Program-made: the position numbers and the translations under genes | Virus record (IMG/VR): IMGVR_UViG_3300001846_000239 | Span: 14,281 to 78,280 of that record | Strand: one strand, 5' to 3' | DNA length: 64,000 bases | Source of the DNA: a virus | Part shown: one piece after another, positions 18,566-31,600 of the stretch | Layout: the number at the start of each line of letters is the position of its first letter | Position numbering within the stretch: the stretch's first letter is position 1 | The notes under the pieces: generated by a model | Told to the model about the DNA's origin: nothing | The model's database searches: none | What the model saw: only the letters and a program-made list of their open reading frames with translations

Positions 18566-18844
18566 ATGAAATTAATACGATTAACCTCAGGTGAGGAAAT
18601 CATTGGAAAAGTAGCAGTGTCAGATACGACTGTAACTATTAGCGATGCATTTAATATGGTTTCGACTGAACCCGGTAAAATTGGGTTTATTCCATTTATG
18701 GCATACTCTAGTGATACACAGTTCGAAGTTGACAAAAGCCATGTACTTATGATCTGTACGCCAGTCGATGAATTGGTTGATCAAATCAGAAGTATGACGT
18801 CTGGAATCGTAACACCACCAAAACAAGGAATCATTACATCATGA
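18566..18844 (+). CDS. Conserved hypothetical protein (Sm-like fold suspected)
   Basis: MKLIRLTSGEEIIGKV, similar start to 1731 ORF; SD AGGAG. Confidence 0.6.
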   Translation: MKLIRLTSGEEIIGKVAVSDTTVTISDAFNMVSTEPGKIGFIPFMAYSSDTQFEVDKSHVLMICTPVDELVDQIRSMTSGIVTPPKQGIITS

Positions 18845-19251
18845 GCCAGAACTGGGTAAAAGACATCGAACAGATGCAAGATAAGTTCGGAACCCTTGAT
18901 TGGGTTTTCGAAAATAAAAATAATCCTGAAAAGCTAAGAAAGTTTTTGGAATTTCGTATTGCGTTTCTACAAGAAGAACTTGATGAAACTAAAAAGGCTT
19001 TTGAAACTATGGACGGTGAAGAAATCGTCGATGGTTTGATTGACCTATGTGTTGTAGCAATCGGAACTCTAGATGCTTTCAGTGTAGATGCATATAAGGC
19101 TTGGGACGAAGTCCTTAAAGCTAATATGGCAAAGGAAGTAGGGGTTAAAGCAGAACGACCCAATCCTCTAGGTTTGCCTGATTTGGTAAAACCAAAAGGT
19201 TGGACAAATCCATCACATAGTGGCAACCATGGTATCTTGGGAGATATTTAA
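18841..19251 (+). CDS. MazG-like/all-alpha NTP pyrophosphohydrolase
   Basis: FLQEELDE...EEIVDGLIDLCVV ExxE..ExxD pattern, ANM.K. Confidence 0.8.
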   Translation: MSQNWVKDIEQMQDKFGTLDWVFENKNNPEKLRKFLEFRIAFLQEELDETKKAFETMDGEEIVDGLIDLCVVAIGTLDAFSVDAYKAWDEVLKANMAKEVGVKAERPNPLGLPDLVKPKGWTNPSHSGNHGILGDI

Positions 19252-21539: not shown

Positions 21540-21568
21540 TGTACAAATCCAATTCATCGTGTTATAAT
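21540..21568 (+). promoter_or_regulatory. Early promoter heading the hmC operon
   Basis: TGTACA-17 nt-TATAAT. Confidence 0.8.
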
Positions 21569-21599
21569 ATACAAGTAAATTTGAAAAGGCTCTATTATT

Positions 21600-21902
21600 A
21601 TGAAGTTTGACGAAGGTAAAGCTCCATTAGCTTTAATTCCACCAGAAGCATTACTCGAAATCGCTGAAGTGTTTGGCTTCGGTGCTGAAAAGTATGGCGT
21701 AAACAATTGGCGTATCGATGGCGATACAAGTAAGTTGCGCACATATTCATCTATTCAGCGACATCTTAATGCATGGCATAGTGGCGAAGATCTAGATCCA
21801 GAATCTGGTATGAGTCACTTGGCACACGCCGCAACACAATTAATGATTCTAATGATTCATACATTAGAACATCCAGAAGTAGACGATAGGTATGGCAAAT
21901 GA
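21600..21902 (+). CDS. dNTP diphosphohydrolase-like protein (DUF5664)
   Basis: KFDEGK, FGAEKYGVNNW, RHL..W..GE..D.ESG..HLAHA. Confidence 0.8.
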   Translation: MKFDEGKAPLALIPPEALLEIAEVFGFGAEKYGVNNWRIDGDTSKLRTYSSIQRHLNAWHSGEDLDPESGMSHLAHAATQLMILMIHTLEHPEVDDRYGK

Positions 21903-22549
21903 ATATACGTGATATAAGAAACCACTTTAGACAAGAACTCTTAAACAAGAATTTTACTGTTGATCGGAATGGCAGTAAGACGATTGAATTGTTGGGTGCG
22001 TCCTTTCATGCAACCGAACCGGCTATTTTTGGTACACCTAATCAAGAATATATTGATGCTGAAATTGCATGGTATGAATCGCAATCGACAAATATCTATG
22101 ATATCTTTATTGACAAAGATCCACCAAAGGCATGGCAAATGACCGCCAATCGTCATGGTGAGATTAACTCGAATTATGGCCATCTTATTTTTAGCGATAA
22201 GTATAATAACCAGTTTGAACAAGTAGTTAACGAGCTACGTAAAAACAAAGATTCACGTCGAGCTTCTATGATCTATACTCGTCCATCTATTTGGCTTGAG
22301 TATAATGATCAAAACAAGAATGACTATATTTGTACAAATTCTGTTACATATTATATCCGCGACAATGAATTACATTGTGTGGTACAGATGCGTTCTAATG
22401 ATGTTATCTTCGGATATCGTAATGATTATGCATGGCAAGAATATGTACTATGCACATTGGCTGATGAACTTGGAGTCGATGACGGTGAAATTTATTGGCA
22501 AGTTCAAAATTTACATGTCTATGAACGACACTTTGATTTGGTAGAATAA
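21899..22549 (+). CDS. 42: dCMP hydroxymethylase (T4 gp42-like, thymidylate synthase fold)
   Basis: KTIELLGASF, GEINSNYG, DSRRASMIYTRPS, CTN, MRSNDVIFGYRNDYAWQ, LHVYERHF closely track T4 gp42; Asp at the pyrimidine-specificity position. Confidence 0.9.
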   Translation: MNIRDIRNHFRQELLNKNFTVDRNGSKTIELLGASFHATEPAIFGTPNQEYIDAEIAWYESQSTNIYDIFIDKDPPKAWQMTANRHGEINSNYGHLIFSDKYNNQFEQVVNELRKNKDSRRASMIYTRPSIWLEYNDQNKNDYICTNSVTYYIRDNELHCVVQMRSNDVIFGYRNDYAWQEYVLCTLADELGVDDGEIYWQVQNLHVYERHFDLVE

Positions 22550-23037
22550 TGGAAAATTATAACAAACGGCCTGGCGGCCAATGGGCAGTCGCAAACATAT
22601 ACAAGTGGGATAAACGCTATTTAGATTTAGCGGAACATATTTCCACTTGGTCTAAAGATCCTTCACGTAAAGTAGGAGCTGTCGCTGTTGGTTCTAAAGG
22701 TCAAGTTTTAGCACAAGGTTATAATGGTTTTCCTCGTGGAATCTCAGATGATGATTCCATGTATGAAAATAAAGTAACTAAATATCAGTATGTCGTTCAT
22801 GCTGAAATGAATTGTATTTACAATGCTACATATAACGGCACATCACTTGATGGAGCAACTATGTACATTTATGGATTACCAGTTTGTTCCGAATGCGCAA
22901 AAGGCATTATTCAAGTCGGAATTAAACGAGTGGTAACACGCGAGCTCGATGATACAATGCCAGAACGCTGGGTTGAATCGACTCAATTGACTAAACGAAT
23001 GTTTGAAGAGGCTAATATAGTTTATGAGTTCATCTAA
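22549..23037 (+). CDS. cd: dCMP deaminase
   Basis: GYNGFP, HAEMN, PVCSECAK. Confidence 0.92.
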   Translation: MENYNKRPGGQWAVANIYKWDKRYLDLAEHISTWSKDPSRKVGAVAVGSKGQVLAQGYNGFPRGISDDDSMYENKVTKYQYVVHAEMNCIYNATYNGTSLDGATMYIYGLPVCSECAKGIIQVGIKRVVTRELDDTMPERWVESTQLTKRMFEEANIVYEFI

Positions 23038-23329
23038 AGCATTAGATCGCTTTGATCTAGAAGAACAAATTATGAAATGTTGGAATGTTACTGAAGATTT
23101 GGATATGGTACTAGAACGAGTACTTGATAGTCCATCATTTGAAGGTATGCCACCAGAACTAGCAGATAAAATTGCTAATATTTTAATTGGTATGAAAGAG
23201 TTGTACGAAATGAGGTTTGAAAAACTTTGGGACACGTTTGAAACAATGGTAGAACAAGGTCAATTCAAATTTGATTACTCAGAGATTAACCAGTATAAGT
23301 ATCTAGCGGATAATGGCAACTGCGGGTAA
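23024..23329 (+). CDS. Hypothetical protein
   Basis: RFDLEEQIMKCW...F.KLW.TFE. Confidence 0.6.
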   Translation: MSSSKALDRFDLEEQIMKCWNVTEDLDMVLERVLDSPSFEGMPPELADKIANILIGMKELYEMRFEKLWDTFETMVEQGQFKFDYSEINQYKYLADNGNCG

Positions 23330-23347
23330 AGAGGATTAAAAGTTTTT

Positions 23348-23423
23348 GCGCCCGTAGTTCAGTGGATAGAACAACGGTCTTCTAAACCGTAGGTCACAGG
23401 TTCGAATCCTGTCGGGCGCGCCA
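23348..23423 (+). tRNA. tRNA-Arg(TCT)
   Basis: 76-nt cloverleaf: acceptor GCGCCCG/CGGGCGC, anticodon arm ACGGT-CTTCTAA-ACCGT, GGTTCGAATCC, encoded CCA. Confidence 0.95.
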
Positions 23424-23427
23424 ATTA

Positions 23428-23504
23428 CGGAACATAGCACAGTCTGGTAGTGCACTGCCTTTGGGAGGCAGGGGTCGTAGGTTCGAATCCTACTGTTCCG
23501 ACCA
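23428..23504 (+). tRNA. tRNA-Pro(TGG)
   Basis: 77-nt cloverleaf: acceptor CGGAACA/TGTTCCG, anticodon arm CTGCC-TTTGGGA-GGCAG, GGTTCGAATCC, encoded CCA. Confidence 0.95.
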
Positions 23505-23521
23505 ATGAGGAGAAAAGTAAA

Positions 23522-23731
23522 ATGTTATATTCAGGATATATGTTTAAAATCACGGAAGATGGTTTACTTATGGTTGATAGTCAACCAGATGAAATGATCA
23601 TGATAGAAAGTACTCCATTTAGTGTTGGAGATACCTTCGTATTAACACAAACAACAGAAGGTAATATGTTTTTTAGGAAAACACAACAACCGCAACAAAT
23701 ACCTTTAGAAATTGAGGGATGGGAATGGTAA
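23522..23731 (+). CDS. Hypothetical protein
   Basis: ATG 23522 after SD GAGGAG; upstream extension of the ORF-track call overlaps tRNA-Pro. Confidence 0.6.
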   Translation: MLYSGYMFKITEDGLLMVDSQPDEMIMIESTPFSVGDTFVLTQTTEGNMFFRKTQQPQQIPLEIEGWEW

Positions 23732-23910
23732 GTAAAAATGATATTACAGGAGATTCAATTAAATCCAAAACGTTATCACAACAAGGAAGAGATAACTGGG
23801 ATCGAATCTTCGGTAAAAAAGATAAACCAAGTGCAGTAGACGACTGCGCAACAAGCAAGGAAGAAAGTGCAATTAATGAAATTGAAAAAAGAACTGAAAA
23901 GAATGGCTGA
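23719..23910 (+). CDS. Hypothetical protein
   Basis: KNDITGDSIKSK......NWDRIFGK, a small-ORF pattern common in phages. Confidence 0.55.
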   Translation: MGMVSKNDITGDSIKSKTLSQQGRDNWDRIFGKKDKPSAVDDCATSKEESAINEIEKRTEKNG

Positions 23911-24154
23911 GTTTACAACACCAAAACAGACTTTAGACTGGTATGTAAAGTGGGTTGCATCTATTTTTGTACTGGCTGCAATGTCATTGCGAGGAATTGA
24001 AGGATTACAATTATGGGACCTTTTATTGTCCTCTATTGGTATTCTATTATGGTTATGGGTTTCTATTTTATGGAAAGACCGCGCATTAATTCTACTTAAT
24101 GGGGTAGGATTAATCTTTTTGGCTAAGAACTTTTTTGCGACACTTATGATATGA
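23903..24154 (+). CDS. Small three-TM membrane protein
   Basis: WYVKWVAS...W..VS.LW.DRALI.LN hydrophobic segments. Confidence 0.65.
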   Translation: MAEFTTPKQTLDWYVKWVASIFVLAAMSLRGIEGLQLWDLLLSSIGILLWLWVSILWKDRALILLNGVGLIFLAKNFFATLMI

Positions 24155-24564
24155 GAGTAGGAATAACTTTTTCTAGTTTTGATTTATTACATGCAGGTCA
24201 TGTACAAATGCTACGTGAAGCAAAGAGTCAATGTGATTATCTAATATGCGGATTACAATATGATCCATCAATAGATAGACTAGAAAAAAATCAACCAGTA
24301 CAATCGATGGTTGAAAGATATACACAATTGAATGCTATTAAATATGTAGATGAAATTATTCCTTATATGTTTGAGCACGAAGTTGTAGATATTCTGAGTC
24401 TATATAAACCAGACGTAAGAATTTTAGGTGACGAATACAGACACCAAGATTTTACTGGAAAAGAATTATGTCAACAATATAATATAGAATTATATTTTAA
24501 TAGTAGACGTCATAGATTCAGTACAACTAACTTGAGACAAGATATACAAAATGCAAAAAACTAA
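24151..24564 (+). CDS. Glycerol-3-phosphate cytidylyltransferase-like (TagD family)
   Basis: FDLLHAGH, ER...L...KYVD, RRHRFSTT. Confidence 0.85.
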   Translation: MRVGITFSSFDLLHAGHVQMLREAKSQCDYLICGLQYDPSIDRLEKNQPVQSMVERYTQLNAIKYVDEIIPYMFEHEVVDILSLYKPDVRILGDEYRHQDFTGKELCQQYNIELYFNSRRHRFSTTNLRQDIQNAKN

Positions 24565-25699
24565 ATATTATTATGACTTTTTGAAGTACTTCCAGTTGGC
24601 CAAAGATCAACAAGAAAAGTGTAATGTTCCTAATTTTATGCCTCATACTGAAAGTGGCATGAATGATGATCTTATGGAACAAGTTGAACTATATGATGTA
24701 GTCGAAAGAAAATATGCAGGTTTTTCACAAATCGTAAATGACATATTTTATGGTTGGACTGATAAACATCCTTATTGGGATCGAATGCAAGCTGGTAAAG
24801 CAACTTCTCAAAGAGAACTCGTTGCACAAAATTGGACTGGACGTCAACATACACTAGAAACCTGGTTGTATCTTTTTATTCTACATAGAGTAACCGGTTC
24901 AGCAATTAACTATGGAACTAAACCTTCCGGATATCATAACACATTATTATTCAAGCTTCATTTAGCCGATGATATTGAAGCTATGAAAAAGATTATCAAA
25001 GCTGAAGGTAAGATGGGTAAACCTTTCTATACCTCTATCGGATATCAATTCCCAGCATTTCCAAAACCGACAAATGATTTTAAGAAAGGTGGTGATTACT
25101 ATCTCTGTGAATATGCTCCTAGATTAGCATGTGATCTTGCACGATATTTAGAAACACCTGGTAAAAAAGATCTACGTCAGATCGGTGAATTTATGCTCAA
25201 CTGGAATGTTGAAAATGGACTAAGACAATACAAGTTTCAATACGCGGCTGTTGTCGCAGATGTTGCTGATTGGTTTCCAGAATATGTGAATAAAGAAAGT
25301 CTATTTTATTATGGAACAAACGCAGTTGAGTGTATTTCATATCTTGCTGAAAATGATCAACGATTAAAGAAGGAAGCTTTCCTTGATGAAGTAATGATGA
25401 ACATTTATAAAGATACAGGAAGTGTACCATATAATGCAGAAGATGTATGTTGTGATTATATTAGATGGGTAGAAAATTATATTAAACCCGGTGACGATTA
25501 TGCGCATCTTGATTTTGACAAAGTATGGTCTAGCAGTGATATTAAAGATCATCCACGTGGACGTCAAAAAGCAATGTTGGATTTAGGACTTGTAGAAACA
25601 TTTAACGGCATGACTTCACATCCTTCGGATTTTAAAATACTAAATGATAATGGTCTAACTGTTGAACAATATCAAAGCATGGTGAATAATGGCTCATAA
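24551..25699 (+). CDS. Putative DNA base-modification enzyme, aGPT-Pplase/HhH-glycosylase-like
   Basis: N-terminal D.LM.....YDVV.R, A.V.AD, C-terminal AEDVCCDYIRW resemble the E..LCE..KY end of aGPT-Pplase family; context next to gp42 and PLP enzyme. Confidence 0.5.
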   Translation: MQKTKYYYDFLKYFQLAKDQQEKCNVPNFMPHTESGMNDDLMEQVELYDVVERKYAGFSQIVNDIFYGWTDKHPYWDRMQAGKATSQRELVAQNWTGRQHTLETWLYLFILHRVTGSAINYGTKPSGYHNTLLFKLHLADDIEAMKKIIKAEGKMGKPFYTSIGYQFPAFPKPTNDFKKGGDYYLCEYAPRLACDLARYLETPGKKDLRQIGEFMLNWNVENGLRQYKFQYAAVVADVADWFPEYVNKESLFYYGTNAVECISYLAENDQRLKKEAFLDEVMMNIYKDTGSVPYNAEDVCCDYIRWVENYIKPGDDYAHLDFDKVWSSSDIKDHPRGRQKAMLDLGLVETFNGMTSHPSDFKILNDNGLTVEQYQSMVNNGS

Positions 25700-26564
25700 T
25701 AAACACGTAGAAGATGGATTTAATAAAGATATTGGGTTAATGCAACCTGATGAAGCAAAGCAATATTACCTAGATCTAGCTAAAGATTGGGAAGATCCGA
25801 ATCCAGCTCCAGTTGAAGTAATTCATGATGGAGTTCGTGTTATTAGAGATGATATGATCGTCGGATCTAAAACACGTGGTGGTGATTGTCTAATTAGTAC
25901 AATTAAAGAAGATACAATTGCGTATGTTCAACCACGTACAGGTTTGGCCGGTGTGAGTATTTTAGATGTAGCAAAACGTCATGGTAAAAAAGTACGACTG
26001 TATATGCCATCAAGTAAAAAGATTTCTCATCATCAAGCATGTTGTATTGAACAAGGCGCTGAAGCAAGTTTTCATCGAATCGCAGCAATGCCTAATCTAA
26101 ACAAAATCGCATTAGAAGATTCTAAGAAGAACGGATATTACTTTGTTCCTCTTGGTCTAAAACATGAAATGGTAACTGCGGGTTTAGTAAAGGTTGCGAG
26201 TGCAATTAAAGAACCCGATGAAGTTTATGTGGCTACATCAACTGGCGTTCTAACACGAGCACTTCAAATAGCATGGCCTAATGCGAAGTTTGTTTCAGTA
26301 GCAGTATCTAGAAATATGAAAGCAGGTGAGTTGGGTAGAGCTGAAGTGATTAGTGAACCTAAAGCTTTTACCGCATCAGAGAGTAAAGAAAACTTACCAC
26401 CATTTCCATGCATTGATACTTATGACGGAAAAGTATGGAAATTTATTCCAAAGAATAGCGACAAAGATATTCTATTTTGGAACGTAGGTCCCGAACCTAC
26501 ATTACATGATGAAACACTATATGAAACTGTTGACTCTTATAGAGATTGGGATAAGAATTTATGA
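25689..26564 (+). CDS. PLP-dependent fold-type II enzyme (cysteine synthase/Trp synthase beta-like)
   Basis: RDD...GSKTR Schiff-base Lys, VATSTG loop, WNVG. Confidence 0.75.
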   Translation: MAHNKHVEDGFNKDIGLMQPDEAKQYYLDLAKDWEDPNPAPVEVIHDGVRVIRDDMIVGSKTRGGDCLISTIKEDTIAYVQPRTGLAGVSILDVAKRHGKKVRLYMPSSKKISHHQACCIEQGAEASFHRIAAMPNLNKIALEDSKKNGYYFVPLGLKHEMVTAGLVKVASAIKEPDEVYVATSTGVLTRALQIAWPNAKFVSVAVSRNMKAGELGRAEVISEPKAFTASESKENLPPFPCIDTYDGKVWKFIPKNSDKDILFWNVGPEPTLHDETLYETVDSYRDWDKNL

Positions 26565-26800
26565 ACCAAGAAGCCTTGATTATAACAATGGAAGAATGTG
26601 GTGAGTTGATCCAAGCATGTAGTAAAGTTATAAGATCAAAAGGTGATACAAAGTATATACATAATCTGCAAGATGAAATCGGTGATGTGATGTGTATGAT
26701 CGAAATCCTTAAGAAACATAACTTTGTAACTGATGAACAAATTGAAAATCGCATAGAAGTAAAAATGAACAAATTGAAAAAGTGGAGCACTTTATTATGA
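26561..26800 (+). CDS. Small MazG-like pyrophosphohydrolase
   Basis: EECGELIQACSK...LQDEIGDV. Confidence 0.8.
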   Translation: MNQEALIITMEECGELIQACSKVIRSKGDTKYIHNLQDEIGDVMCMIEILKKHNFVTDEQIENRIEVKMNKLKKWSTLL

Positions 26801-27750
26801 TAACCGGAACTTTTAGTAAAATACCTAAAAAGAAAAATAGTCATGGTTATGGTTGGGCAAGAACCTGGTCAGAAAATCTAGGAGTCGGTATTAATCATGA
26901 AGGTGATTTTACCGAAGTTTTATATTTAGATCATGGAGTTAATTTTGGAGGATCTCTAAACTTATTCGGAGGTTTTACTCCAGACCTTGAACGTAGAATT
27001 AACAACTTTCTAAAAGCACGATACGTATATTCACTAGATATTGATATGCCAGATTATGGTGAAATGTTAAAGAAAAGAAAGGATGTAGTAGACAAAGGAT
27101 GGTGTGATCTAGTTTCAGCCAAATGTAAATCAGCAAAGACTCTAAAATCTACCGATATCTCTGAACTGAGATGGTTAACTATCGGTGATTCTCATACTGC
27201 CGCATACGCAAAAGATAGATCTATGGTAATAAAAACTAATGGATTGACACTCAATGGTCAAATCAGAACTGCATTTGATTATGTCACGGACCACATTCAA
27301 CAATGTATGCCTTCAGGTGTTACAATGTCATTTGGTAATATAGATATTAGGCATCACGTTTGCAGACTCGGTGTAGATATCGAAGGAATGCTAATTGCTT
27401 GGAAAAAGTATGGTGATAGACTAGAAGATCGTGGTATTATTGTCGAATATGCAACACCATGGCCAATCGAATACGAAGAGAGAAAACTACCTAAAACTGG
27501 TTATTATAAAGGTCAACCGTTTTGGGGAACTCGCGATGAAAGAATCAACGTCTTAAATAAATGGATTTCAATTATGGATGATCTAGGTATGAAAAGGGTT
27601 GAATATCCATCGGAATGGCTCACTATGGATGGTGAGAAATATGCCAAGGATATTATGGAAAGCGTGTCATCTGTACACTTATCTCCTGAATGTTATAGAA
27701 GAAAAAATTGGGGAATTAACTGTGTACAATTAACAGATTTCATGTTATAA
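26797..27750 (+). CDS. SGNH/GDSL-like hydrolase or acyltransferase
   Basis: IGDSH (block I), FGNID (block III), SVHL (block V variant). Confidence 0.6.
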   Translation: MITGTFSKIPKKKNSHGYGWARTWSENLGVGINHEGDFTEVLYLDHGVNFGGSLNLFGGFTPDLERRINNFLKARYVYSLDIDMPDYGEMLKKRKDVVDKGWCDLVSAKCKSAKTLKSTDISELRWLTIGDSHTAAYAKDRSMVIKTNGLTLNGQIRTAFDYVTDHIQQCMPSGVTMSFGNIDIRHHVCRLGVDIEGMLIAWKKYGDRLEDRGIIVEYATPWPIEYEERKLPKTGYYKGQPFWGTRDERINVLNKWISIMDDLGMKRVEYPSEWLTMDGEKYAKDIMESVSSVHLSPECYRRKNWGINCVQLTDFML

Positions 27751-27751
27751 T
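27723..27751 (+). promoter_or_regulatory. Early promoter for rpsU-uvsX-41
   Basis: TGTACA-17 nt-TATAAT. Confidence 0.8.
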
Positions 27752-30940: not shown

Positions 30941-31600
30941 ATGTTTAATGTGCGAGTTGTTTCACACAGTAAACCGGCAATCGGTGTGGAGTTAAAAGAT
31001 GATTTGTTACAAATGGTTGCGTATTGCGCAAGAGTATCAAATCCAGGAAATCAAAGCAACGAAGAAACTGCCGAAAAATTAGTCAAGTATTTGATTAAAC
31101 ATCAGCACTGGTCTCCACTAGAGATGGCCAGTGTCTGCATGGAAATCGAGACCACAAGGGATATTGCTAGACAAATTCTTAGACATCGATCTTTTTCGTT
31201 TCAAGAATTTAGTCAGCGATATGCCGATCCAACACAAGATCTAAGCTTTGTTACACGTGAAGCCAGATTACAAGACAATAAGAATAGACAAAACTCATTG
31301 TCAATCCCTATTGAAGATTCAATTCATCATATTTGGGAATCATACCAGGAAGTTATCATTGAGCGATGCAAACACGCTTATGAATGGGCTATCAATGCTG
31401 GTATTGCTAAAGAACAGGCTAGAGCAATTCTGCCTGAGGGACTAACAATGTCTCGTATGTACGTTAATGGAACATTGCGTTCTTGGATTCATTATATCCA
31501 ATTGAGAGCAGGTAATGGTACTCAGAAGGAACATCAGGAGATTGCTAAAGCTTGTGCAGAGGCAATTTATCAGATATTCCCGCTTGATGACGTTATATAA
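30941..31600 (+). CDS. thyX: Flavin-dependent thymidylate synthase
   Basis: HWSPLE, RHRSFSFQEFSQRY, AKEQAR.ILP, Q.EH. Confidence 0.93.
   Translation: MFNVRVVSHSKPAIGVELKDDLLQMVAYCARVSNPGNQSNEETAEKLVKYLIKHQHWSPLEMASVCMEIETTRDIARQILRHRSFSFQEFSQRYADPTQDLSFVTREARLQDNKNRQNSLSIPIEDSIHHIWESYQEVIIERCKHAYEWAINAGIAKEQARAILPEGLTMSRMYVNGTLRSWIHYIQLRAGNGTQKEHQEIAKACAEAIYQIFPLDDVI

What the first reader, a model, noticed from the sequence alone, without database searches (positions are those of the whole stretch)
21540..27750. Hydroxymethylcytosine operon with a non-glucosyl hypermodification cassette (TagD-like + aGPT-Pplase-like + PLP + SGNH)
Seen: after one early promoter come a DUF5664 hydrolase, a gp42-like enzyme carrying the dCMP-specifying Asp (RND), dCMP deaminase, then four translationally linked enzymes (CDP-glycerol synthase-like, 382-aa HhH/aGPT-Pplase-like, PLP fold-II, SGNH) with a MazG inside. 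No T4-type alpha/beta glucosyltransferase is recognisable here. Established: aGPT-Pplase-family kinases/transferases and PLP enzymes hypermodify 5-hydroxymethyluracil in phages such as ViI, M6 and phiW-14, and T4 gp42 makes hmdCMP. Inference: the thymidine-hypermodification chemistry may have been redirected to cytosine, possibly with a CDP-polyol donor and an acyl or amino tailoring step, giving an undescribed base. The aGPT-Pplase assignment is by-eye only.
Basis: partly seen in the sequence, partly recalled or inferred. Interest (0 to 1): 0.85.

Follow-up and report, generated by a model that had tools for sequence, protein, structure and literature searches.

The report
Phage hydroxymethylcytosine hypermodification gene cassette
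An uncultured marine T4-like phage carries T4's enzyme for making 5-hydroxymethylcytosine, but where T4 has sugar-adding enzymes it has a conserved enzyme trio distantly related to the thymine-decorating enzymes of other phages, so its DNA probably carries an undescribed cytosine modification.

Summary
One early-promoter operon (21540-27750) encodes these genes in order:
- a DUF5664 NTP pyrophosphohydrolase;
- a T4 gp42 orthologue with the full 5-hydroxymethyl-dCMP signature, not the RB69-type 5-hydroxy-C signature;
- dCMP deaminase and four small ORFs;
- a translationally coupled run of a CDP-alcohol-type cytidylyltransferase, a 382-aa protein, a fold-II PLP enzyme, a short MazG and an SGNH-fold protein.

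**The 382-aa protein.** It misses every Pfam aGPT-Pplase/ADDT model. Its nearest solved structure is PaMx11 gp46, a proven amino-acid:DNA transferase.

**The PLP enzyme.** It is a homologue of the M6 gp52 DNA-linked amino-acid decarboxylase, and the PLP lysine aligns.

**The core module.** In 80 related viral loci the conserved core is transferase-like + PLP + SGNH-like. It usually sits just downstream of a dCMP-type hydroxymethylase. The SGNH-like and transferase-like proteins are fused in some phages.

**What is not core.** The cytidylyltransferase (1 of 80 loci) and the short MazG (4 of 80) are lineage-specific extras. No 5-hmdU-type DNA kinase, gp1 kinase or T4 glucosyltransferase was found.

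**Best reading (about 0.6).** The module hypermodifies 5-hmC in DNA after replication, with a group probably derived from an amino acid. The chemistry is not shown.

This scan has noted the same trio in several other genomes; I found no publication on it.

The parts
21540..21568 (+). Early promoter (TGTACA-N14-TGN-TATAAT) that heads the operon
   Evidence: 12 copies in the window against 0.02 expected; none between 21568 and 27723.
21600..21902 (+). All-alpha NTP pyrophosphohydrolase (PF18909 dGTP_diPhyd_N, former DUF5664). Candidate dNTP-pool editor; substrate unknown.
   Evidence: E 8e-32; phrog_801, 2.5e-40. The family is widespread in phages without known modification. Overlaps the next gene by 4 nt.
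21899..22549 (+). T4 gp42-type dCMP hydroxymethylase (5hm-dCMP synthase)
   Evidence: PDB 1b49, E 6.6e-66; signature D142 / C145 / D168 / D176, equivalent to E. coli ThyA L143D, C146, D169, N177D. Criteria are from PMC13326640.
22549..23037 (+). dCMP deaminase
   Evidence: PF00383 4e-20; phrog_174 1.7e-45.
23024..24154 (+). Four small ORFs: 23024-23329, 23450-23731, 23719-23910, and 23867-24154 (DUF6552). Function unknown.
   Evidence: Conserved in order only in the closest relatives L006-L016.
24151..24564 (+). CDP-alcohol-type cytidylyltransferase (GCT/ECT/CCT family, 'TagD-like'). Lineage-specific accessory gene.
   Evidence: PF01467, 2.5e-15. (3elb 4e-22, 1coz 8e-14; HxGH 'LHAGH' and '..FSTT' motifs align). 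Present in only 1 of 80 related loci, L048. Homologues are common in unrelated phages.
24551..25699 (+). Divergent amino-acid:DNA-transferase-like protein (HhH-glycosylase-like fold). Core module member.
   Evidence: AF2 pLDDT 78. Best solved chain is 8z2m, PaMx11 gp46/PUGT, Z 8.9. BFVD and AFDB hits to ADDT/HMUDK_hel proteins. ESM features 0.98. No Pfam or HMM hit. More than 900 metagenomic homologues.
25689..26564 (+). Fold-II PLP enzyme, homologue of the M6 gp52 decarboxylase of DNA-linked amino acids. Core module member.
   Evidence: BLASTP 4e-9 over the full length. K61 in 'GSKTRG' aligns with gp52 K36. Shared C-terminal PFPC...FWNxG; phrog_7093, 8e-35. The function of gp52 is from PMC8989533.
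26561..26800 (+). Short MazG-type NTP pyrophosphohydrolase (79 aa). Accessory gene.
   Evidence: Found in 4 of 80 related loci.
26797..27750 (+). Two-domain protein: N-terminal alpha/beta domain plus C-terminal SGNH-fold domain. Core module member. Fused to the transferase-like domain in other phages.
   Evidence: AF2 pLDDT 86. SGNH fold Z 11.4, with all top 50 chains SGNH. Invariant GDSH 135-138, GNID 185-188 and H299. Fusion proteins P0308, P0265 and P0350.
27723..27751 (+). Next early promoter (S21-uvsX-41 operon). Marks the downstream boundary.
30941..31600 (+). ThyX thymidylate synthase (context). dTMP is made separately, as with T4 td.
   Evidence: PF02511, 1e-43.

Best explanation
The operon is a T4-style cytosine-replacement pathway joined to a non-glycosyl DNA hypermodification module.

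**Step 1 (well supported by sequence).** The gp42 orthologue converts dCMP to 5-hydroxymethyl-dCMP. dCMP deaminase and ThyX supply dTMP separately, as in T4. The MazG-like and DUF5664 pyrophosphohydrolases probably bias the dNTP pool; this part is inferred.

**Step 2 (inferred).** 5-hmC enters DNA during replication.

**Step 3 (inferred from homology, gene fusion and co-occurrence).** A conserved trio then acts on 5-hmC in DNA.
- The 382-aa HhH-fold protein, whose nearest solved relative is the 5-PmdU glycinyltransferase of PaMx11, would flip out the base and exchange or attach a group at the 5-methylene carbon.
- The SGNH-fold protein is fused to it in other phages. It would perform the acyl/ester-transfer or activation step that the missing 5-hmdU DNA kinase performs in thymine pathways.
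- The M6 gp52-like PLP enzyme would then decarboxylate, or otherwise tailor, an amino-acid-derived adduct.

**Product.** Probably an amine-bearing 5-substituted cytosine.

**Accessory genes.** The CDP-alcohol cytidylyltransferase and the 79-aa MazG are specific to this lineage. They may supply or alter a donor, or may be unrelated.
For: **The hydroxymethylase.** gp42 orthology: PDB 1b49 at 6.6e-66. The D/C/D/D signature marks the 5hm type rather than the 5ho type in the window, in 38 related loci and in one complete 256-kb genome (criteria).

**Transcription unit.** One early-promoter unit with start/stop overlaps.

**The transferase-like protein.** Nearest PDB fold is the AADT 8z2m, Z 8.9. 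Its viral and AFDB neighbours are annotated ADDT or HMUDK_hel.

**The PLP enzyme.** BLASTP 4e-9 to M6 gp52 with the PLP lysine aligned. gp52 and ViI gp226 decarboxylate amino acids tethered to DNA (PMC8989533).

**The SGNH-like protein.** SGNH fold with the catalytic motifs invariant.

**Gene fusions.** SGNH-like + transferase-like fusion proteins exist, E 1e-33 to 8e-39.

**Co-occurrence in 80 loci.** PLP is present in 65 and SGNH-like in 63. gp42 lies upstream in 24 of the 32 loci with a full flank.

**Paralogue.** Most relatives carry a second distant transferase-like paralogue, hhalign 72%. Known thymine systems show the same paralogous pairing.

**Setting.** The neighbours are replication and nucleotide-metabolism genes. 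A PLP homologue is embedded in a phage 'DNA modification methylase'. Cultured Aeromonas phages 44RR/31/25 have a T4-type gp42, no glucosyltransferase and an SGNH-like fusion protein (PMC2993671).
Against: **No chemistry.** There are no chemical data for any member.

**Weak sequence link for the 382-aa protein.** It fails all Pfam aGPT-Pplase/ADDT/HMUDK_hel models. HMM and hhalign comparisons with M6 gp51 and gp55 are insignificant. The structural link is of moderate strength for a helical protein: Z 8.9, Foldseek E 0.02-0.2.

**Missing kinases.** No activating 5-HMUDK kinase was found. No gp1-type dNMP kinase was found either, in this record or in three 91-100% complete relatives. How hm-dCMP becomes hm-dCTP is therefore open.

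**Role of the SGNH domain.** The proposed role has no precedent.

**Incomplete record.** The record is 63% complete, so a glucosyltransferase or a kinase could lie elsewhere.

**Complex prediction.** It gave no answer.
Confidence: 0.6

Rival explanations
1. The trio works on 5-hydroxymethyluracil, not cytosine. hm-dCMP made by the gp42 homologue is deaminated by the adjacent dCMP deaminase to hm-dUMP. 5-hmU enters DNA and a thymidine-type hypermodification follows, as in M6 and ViI.
For: All characterised AADT and PLP homologues act on 5-hmU derivatives. dCMP deaminase is coupled directly to gp42, here and in 34 of 80 loci. From memory, unchecked: T-even dCMP deaminase can deaminate hm-dCMP in vitro.
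Against: ThyX is present, so dTMP is made normally, which is the T4 layout. Many loci have gp42 and the trio without an adjacent deaminase. No 5-HMUDK was found. No dUMP-type hydroxymethylase occurs in any locus.
Confidence: 0.1
2. The trio does not modify DNA. It acts on free nucleotides or on another small molecule or polymer. One example would be a CDP-alcohol / O-acyl cell-surface pathway. In that case 5-hmC, or plain C, is the final base.
For: TagD-like cytidylyltransferases and SGNH O-acetyl enzymes are typical of surface-polymer synthesis. TagD-like genes are common stand-alone phage auxiliary genes. Some distant loci place GT2 and UDP-galactopyranose mutase after the trio. There is no HMM-level link to AADTs.
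Against: The cytidylyltransferase is absent from 79 of 80 loci, so it cannot define the module. The trio sits among replication and nucleotide genes under an early promoter. Its nearest structural and sequence relatives are DNA-base-modifying enzymes. It tracks dCMP hydroxymethylases.
Confidence: 0.15
3. The HhH-fold protein is a DNA glycosylase-like repair or anti-defence factor, not a transferase. It might, for example, excise or protect hmC, or salvage a base as QNG1 does. The SGNH and PLP proteins would process a released product.
For: Fold neighbours just below PUGT are the queuine-salvage hydrolase DUF2419 (Z 8.2) and the AGOG/HhH glycosylases (Z 7.3). A UDG-superfamily ORF sits next to the gene in many relatives.
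Against: The top hit and the viral neighbours are AADT or HMUDK_hel proteins. The partnership with an M6 gp52-like PLP enzyme mirrors the modification pathways.
Confidence: 0.08

Closest known systems
Thymidine hypermodification pathways of phages M6, ViI, PaMx11 and PhiW-14: 5-hmdU DNA kinase + amino-acid:DNA transferase (aGPT-Pplase2) + PLP decarboxylase (PMC8989533, PMC11472151)
   Same: An HhH-glycosylase-like transferase fold, with PaMx11 gp46 as the nearest solved chain. A homologous fold-II PLP enzyme with the lysine aligned. Linkage to a ThyA-family hydroxymethylase. Paralogous transferase pairs in most relatives.
   Different: The hydroxymethylase is dCMP-specific. No P-loop 5-HMUDK was found. 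A conserved SGNH-fold partner, sometimes fused, is present instead. The transferase is too divergent for any Pfam model.
Phage T4 hydroxymethylcytosine pathway (gp56, gp42, gp1, alpha- and beta-glucosyltransferases)
   Same: A gp42 orthologue with all diagnostic residues. dCMP deaminase plus a separate thymidylate synthase. A T4-like replication module.
   Different: No glucosyltransferase and no gp1-type dNMP kinase were detected. ThyX replaces Td.
RB69/DLP3 arabinosyl-5-hydroxycytosine pathway (PMC13326640)
   Same: A gp42-like ThyA homologue in a T4-like phage that lacks glucosyltransferases.
   Different: RB69-type enzymes carry D169N and make 5-hydroxy-dCMP. This enzyme keeps Asp at that position, in 'RSND'. 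No arabinosyltransferase or NDP-sugar genes are present.
TET/C5-methyltransferase metavirome clusters with a P-loop kinase and aG/PT-PPlase (Burke et al. 2021, PMC8256090)
   Same: A proposed, unproven use of thymine-type kinase/PPlase chemistry on 5hmC.
   Different: There, 5hmC is made after replication by a methyltransferase plus TET, and a P-loop kinase is present. Here, 5hmC is made before replication by gp42, there is no such kinase, and there is an SGNH partner.
Aeromonas T4-like phages 44RR2.8t, 31 and 25 (ORF233c, 795 aa)
   Same: A T4-type gp42, 49% identical with the same signature. No glucosyltransferase. The N-terminal domain is homologous to the SGNH-like protein (tblastn E 6e-18 to 3e-20).
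   Different: The C-terminal 456 aa give only a faint HMUDK_hel hit (E 0.0036), and hhalign is negative. No PLP homologue was found.

Membership tests
T4 gp42-type 5-hydroxymethyl-dCMP synthase | Full-length sequence similarity to the solved T4 enzyme | tested here: met
   1b49, E 6.6e-66, residues 1-215.
T4 gp42-type 5-hydroxymethyl-dCMP synthase | Catalytic Cys (E. coli C146) and Asp at the N177 position (dCMP specificity) | tested here: met
   C145 and D176 ('YRND').
T4 gp42-type 5-hydroxymethyl-dCMP synthase | Acidic residue at the L143 position (water access, giving hydroxymethyl) and Asp, not Asn, at D169 (Asn would mark a 5-hydroxy-dCMP synthase) | tested here: met
   D142 and D168 ('RSND'). 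Criteria are from PMC13326640.
T4 gp42-type 5-hydroxymethyl-dCMP synthase | Formation of 5hm-dCMP from dCMP and methylene-THF | not testable with these tools
   Needs an enzyme assay.
Amino-acid:DNA transferase / aGPT-Pplase (PF18724, PF18746, with HMUDK_hel PF18723) | Match to a family HMM | tested here: not met
   no hit at E 10; 1 of 26 diverse homologues hits ADDT at E 0.001; profile comparisons with M6 gp51/gp55 and with PDB sequences are insignificant.
Amino-acid:DNA transferase / aGPT-Pplase (PF18724, PF18746, with HMUDK_hel PF18723) | Two-helical-bundle, HhH-glycosylase-like fold of PaMx11 gp46 (PUGT) | tested here: met
   8z2m is the best of 48,161 chains (Z 8.9, 209 residues, rmsd 4.2); probability 0.9-1.0 to ADDT/HMUDK_hel models at E 0.02-0.2.
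Amino-acid:DNA transferase / aGPT-Pplase (PF18724, PF18746, with HMUDK_hel PF18723) | Partner P-loop 5-hmdU DNA kinase that makes the phosphorylated substrate | tested here: not met
   neither HMUDK_hel nor an M6 gp54-like kinase in this record or in relatives 99%, 91% and 100% complete. These were single-sequence searches, so a divergent kinase is not excluded.
Amino-acid:DNA transferase / aGPT-Pplase (PF18724, PF18746, with HMUDK_hel PF18723) | Transfer of an amino acid or amine to an activated 5-hydroxymethylpyrimidine in DNA | not testable with these tools
   Needs biochemistry.
M6 gp52 / ViI gp226 PLP-dependent decarboxylase of DNA-linked amino acids | Sequence homology over the full length, with the PLP lysine conserved | tested here: met
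   E 4e-9, 25% identity. K61 aligns with gp52 K36; phrog_7093, 8e-35. The Pfam PALP score is below its cut-off (24.8 against 35 bits).
M6 gp52 / ViI gp226 PLP-dependent decarboxylase of DNA-linked amino acids | Decarboxylation of a base-tethered amino acid | not testable with these tools
   Needs biochemistry.
SGNH/GDSL hydrolase-acyltransferase superfamily | SGNH fold with block I GDS(H), block III GxND and a block V His | tested here: met
   (Z 11.4). G135-D-S-H138, G185-N-I-D188 and H299 are invariant in 25 sequences. The usual block V Asp is Ser. The Pfam Lipase_GDSL model is not met for this protein.
GCT/ECT/CCT cytidylyltransferases (TagD-like) | PF01467 match, HxGH motif and C-terminal ..STT motif | tested here: met
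   (2.5e-15); alignment to 1coz and 3elb; 'LHAGH' and 'RFSTT' align with TagD 'LHWGH' and 'GISTT'. The substrate (glycerol-P, ethanolamine-P or other) is not determinable.
T4 alpha/beta-glucosyltransferases | Match to PF11440 or PF09198 | tested here: not met
   none in the 113-kb record, which is 63% complete. There is a faint PF09198 hit (E 0.078) only in the N-terminus of one fusion homologue, and in 0 of 25 family members.

The most novel reading that the evidence does not exclude
An SGNH-fold enzyme replaces the DNA kinase of the thymine pathways. It activates or acylates 5-hydroxymethylcytosine in DNA. A divergent amino-acid:DNA-transferase and a PLP decarboxylase then install an amine-bearing group. 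In this lineage a CDP-alcohol-derived moiety might be added. The result would be an undescribed hypermodified cytosine, common in abundant ocean pelagimyophage-like viruses and perhaps in cultured Aeromonas phages.
Probability: 0.3. Interest if true: 0.85.

Novelty: new variant of a known kind. Interest (0 to 1): 0.72.

Why it matters
- All proven non-glycosyl pyrimidine hypermodifications of this enzyme family are on thymine. A cytosine version would be a new DNA base.
- A version built without the DNA kinase, around an SGNH-fold partner, would be a new enzymatic route to it.
- The module is abundant: more than 900 homologues at 90% clustering and over 588 IMG/VR loci.
- It sits in phages resembling those of SAR11. 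Published work assumed that their thymidylate-synthase homologue occurs without an aG/PT-PPlase and serves thymidylate synthesis only (PMC9599517).
- A modified cytosine would affect how marine viromes are sequenced and restricted.
- It also suggests an answer to what modifies hmC in gp42-positive, glucosyltransferase-negative Aeromonas phages 44RR/31/25. That question has been open since 2010 (PMC2993671) and can be tested in cultured phages.

Tried and rejected
- **Pfam at E 10 and PDB sequence search for the 382-aa protein:** nothing.
- **tblastn of the 382-aa protein against 50,697 phage records:** no match.
- **Profile tests:** the profile of 26 diverse homologues found nothing in the M6 or 44RR genomes or in PDB sequences. 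hhalign against M6 gp51 and gp55 gave low probability. It aligned only the shared E-x3-C motif.
- **Foldseek against PDB:** only weak AGOG/Ogg hits. The exhaustive VIA search was needed to find 8z2m.
- **PDB sequence search for the PLP protein:** spurious EvgA hits.
- **Complex prediction of the transferase-like and SGNH-like proteins:** no answer, score 0.00. This counts neither for nor against binding.
- **'BGT-like' N-terminal domain of the SGNH-like protein (a lead from earlier scan notes):** one faint PF09198 hit in a fusion homologue (E 0.078). None in 25 members and none in the fold searches. Not supported, but the N-terminal domain was not folded alone.
- **44RR ORF233c C-terminal domain against the family profile:** negative.
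- **T4 gp1 and M6 gp54 kinase searches:** negative.
- **Sequencing runs:** all holders are kept as assembled contigs, so no read-level signal of modification could be examined.
- **RB69-type 5-hydroxycytosine chemistry:** considered and rejected on the D169 residue.

Full report
**Setting.** The window is part of a 112,994-bp IMG/VR viral record that CheckV rates 63% complete. GC content is about 35% and nearly all genes are on the + strand. Around the finding lie a family-B polymerase region, a primase-polymerase, UvsX, a gp41-type helicase, ThyX and ribosomal protein S21. Earlier scan notes place CsgF/CsgG genes at the window's end. S21 and the curli genes are hallmarks of pelagimyophages (PMC7029224). 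Near-identical DNA occurs in marine, estuarine and aquatic metagenomes from 11 studies.

**The observation.**
- A promoter-like site, TGTACA-N14-TGN-TATAAT, lies at 21540-21568.
- The motif occurs 12 times in the window against 0.02 expected. The next copy is at 27723, just before the S21 gene. So 21.6-27.75 kb is one early transcription unit.
- Gene order is: PF18909/DUF5664 pyrophosphohydrolase; gp42 homologue; dCMP deaminase; four small ORFs (one is DUF6552); cytidylyltransferase; a 382-aa protein; a PLP enzyme; a 79-aa MazG; an SGNH-like protein.
- From 23867 onward each start overlaps the previous stop.
- The last gene probably starts at ATG 26797, which gives the 317-aa length of its homologues.

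**The hydroxymethylase.** The 216-aa protein matches the solved T4 dCMP hydroxymethylase at E 6.6e-66 over its whole length.

A 2026 paper showed that RB69-type 'gp42' proteins make 5-hydroxy-dCMP, not 5-hydroxymethyl-dCMP. The diagnostic change is D169N in E. coli ThyA numbering. N177D sets dCMP specificity, and L143D/E goes with hydroxymethylation (PMC13326640).

The window's enzyme reads D142 / C145 / D168 / D176, which is the T4 type. The same four residues occur in all 38 gp42-like ORFs of the related loci. They also occur in the ThyA homologue of a complete 256-kb relative. With dCMP deaminase and ThyX, this reproduces the T4 layout.

**The 382-aa protein.**
- Sequence methods fail: no Pfam hit at E 10, no PDB sequence hit and no cultured-phage tblastn hit.
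- An AlphaFold model from 26 homologues (pLDDT 78) is all-helical.
- An exhaustive structural search of 48,161 PDB chains ranks first 8z2m, the 5-PmdU glycinyltransferase gp46 of phage PaMx11 and a proven amino-acid:DNA transferase (Z 8.9, 209 residues). Queuine-salvage DUF2419 and the AGOG/HhH DNA glycosylases follow.
- In BFVD, a 62%-identical protein is named 'Amino acid:DNA transferase domain-containing'. Weaker hits are the SP10 5-hmdU DNA kinase, Pplase1 and PhiW-14 HMUDK_hel proteins.
- AFDB clusters give a run of HMUDK_hel proteins at probability 0.9-1.0.
- The language-model search points the same way.
- One of 26 diverse homologues reaches Pfam ADDT, at E 0.001.

I read this as a divergent clade of the aGPT-Pplase/AADT superfamily. 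It works like that family but is not a member of any defined family.

**The PLP enzyme.** It aligns with M6 gp52 over its full length (BLASTP 4e-9). K61 in GSKTRG falls on gp52 K36, the lysine proposed to bind PLP, and the two share a C-terminal PFPC...FWNxG motif. gp52 and ViI gp226 are fold-II PLP decarboxylases that act on glycine or serine already attached to thymine in DNA (PMC8989533). Other homologues lie inside the 'DNA modification methylase' gp1 of Erythrobacter phage R6L, and beside ParB genes in a Microcystis phage.

**The SGNH-like protein.** The model (pLDDT 86) has an N-terminal alpha/beta domain. Residues about 127-312 match SGNH esterases and O-acetyltransferases, and all top 50 chains are SGNH (Z up to 11.4). 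GDSH, GNID and a late His are invariant in 25 sequences.

**What is conserved.** A scan of IMG/VR found more than 588 loci encoding relatives of the 382-aa protein, and I examined the best 80. Within 10 kb of the gene:

| Gene | Loci of 80 |
|---|---|
| PLP enzyme | 65 |
| SGNH-like protein | 63 |
| gp42 | 39 |
| dCMP deaminase | 34 |
| 79-aa MazG | 4 |
| Cytidylyltransferase | 1 |

- Many of the 80 contigs are truncated.
- Of the 32 loci with a full upstream flank, 24 have gp42 upstream. The other 8 share one architecture, with the SGNH-like gene first. Their one complete genome has a dCMP-type hydroxymethylase 90 kb away.
- Most loci carry a further 320-350-aa gene after the transferase-like gene. 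hhalign shows it is a distant paralogue (72%, E 3e-5). The window and its closest kin lack it.
- Several metagenomic proteins of 680-790 aa are fusions: an SGNH-like N-terminus (27-33% identity, E 2e-25 to 8e-39) joined to a transferase-like C-terminus.

The conserved functional unit is therefore transferase-like + SGNH-like + PLP. It is tied to dCMP hydroxymethylation and embedded among replication genes.

**What is missing.**
- No HMUDK_hel or M6 gp54-type DNA kinase, either here or in relatives 99%, 91% and 100% complete.
- No T4 gp1-type dNMP kinase.
- No T4 glucosyltransferase in the record.

**Mechanism.** *Shown by sequence:* a T4-type 5hm-dCMP synthase, and a trio whose nearest characterised relatives modify hydroxymethylpyrimidines in DNA. 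*Inferred:*
- 5-hmC is incorporated into DNA.
- The HhH-fold protein flips it out and exchanges a group at the 5-methylene carbon.
- The SGNH partner provides the activation or acyl-transfer step done by the kinase elsewhere.
- The PLP enzyme tailors an amino-acid-derived adduct.

The role of the cytidylyltransferase is the weakest point. Its nearest solved relatives make CDP-ethanolamine and CDP-glycerol, and it is coupled on both sides. But it is nearly unique to this lineage, and similar genes are common stand-alone phage genes. Earlier scan notes describe inositol-synthesis genes at the same position in another genome. That suggests a variable donor-supply slot. I did not test this lead.

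**Cultured relatives.** Aeromonas phages 44RR2.8t, 31 and 25 encode a T4-type gp42 (49% identity, same signature) and lack glucosyltransferases. What, if anything, modifies their hmC has been an open question (PMC2993671). Their 795-aa ORF233c begins with a homologue of the SGNH-like protein. Its C-terminal half gives only a faint HMUDK_hel hit (E 0.0036) and fails hhalign. No PLP homologue was found. This link is suggestive, not established.

**Prior knowledge.**
- I found no paper describing this module.
- PMC9599517 states that in myoviruses of Pelagibacter and of marine cyanobacteria the thymidylate-synthase homologue occurs without an aG/PT-PPlase.
- PMC8256090 speculated about kinase/PPlase chemistry on TET-made 5hmC.
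- This scan has flagged the same trio on several other genomes, with similar conclusions. Those notes are not independent evidence.

**Verdict.** It is a new variant of a known kind of system. The DNA-hypermodification reading has good support, and the chemistry is unknown.

Noticed in passing
window 2155-54205 (12 sites, e.g. 8155, 9633, 15930, 18514, 21540, 27723, 44419, 49851): A phage early-promoter motif, TGTACA-N14-TGN-TATAAT, occurs 12 times against 0.02 expected. Eleven copies are on the + strand and one on the - strand, at 2183-2155.
   Followed up: partly
L024:1365-1778, L036:2350-2772 and the equivalent ~134-147-aa ORFs in many related loci: A small UDG-superfamily protein (Pfam UDG, 3e-5 and 2e-4) sits directly upstream of the transferase-like gene in many relatives. 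The window has the cytidylyltransferase in that slot instead.
   Followed up: partly
L048:14354-15562 (ORFs of similar size, ~398-402 aa, stand at the same position in L029 and L044 but were not scanned): A C-5 cytosine DNA methylase-like protein (PF00145, 4.6e-16) follows the SGNH-like gene in this relative, which also has gp42.
   Followed up: no
L081:13137-15417 (256-kb complete phage genome G001): A GT2 glycosyltransferase and a UDP-galactopyranose mutase follow the trio directly, just before the DNA polymerase. They hint at added glycosylation in that lineage.
   Followed up: no
L001 (Erythrobacter phage vB_EliS_R6L gp1) and L002:5992-6702 (Microcystis phage Mae-JY30): Homologues of the PLP enzyme (about 30% identity). 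One lies inside a large protein annotated 'DNA modification methylase'. The other lies next to two ParB/sulfiredoxin genes.
   Followed up: partly
L003:4399-8379 (Aeromonas phage 44RR2.8t): The 795-aa SGNH-like fusion ORF233c lies next to a phage-encoded sodium:solute symporter gene.
   Followed up: no
G006, G007, G001 (relatives 99%, 91% and 100% complete) and the window's own record: No T4 gp1-type dNMP kinase was detected, although a T4-type dCMP hydroxymethylase is present. The route from hm-dCMP to hm-dCTP is unexplained.
   Followed up: partly
window 26782-26800: The ORF finder starts the SGNH-like gene at GTG 26782. Homologues and the Atlas record start at the ATG at 26797, which overlaps the MazG stop by 4 nt.
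   Followed up: yes
window 18841-19251, 21600-21902, 26561-26800: Three separate all-alpha NTP pyrophosphohydrolase genes (PRA-PH/MazG-like, DUF5664, short MazG) lie within 8 kb. Their substrates are unknown. Any of them could be the dCTPase needed to exclude dC.
   Followed up: no
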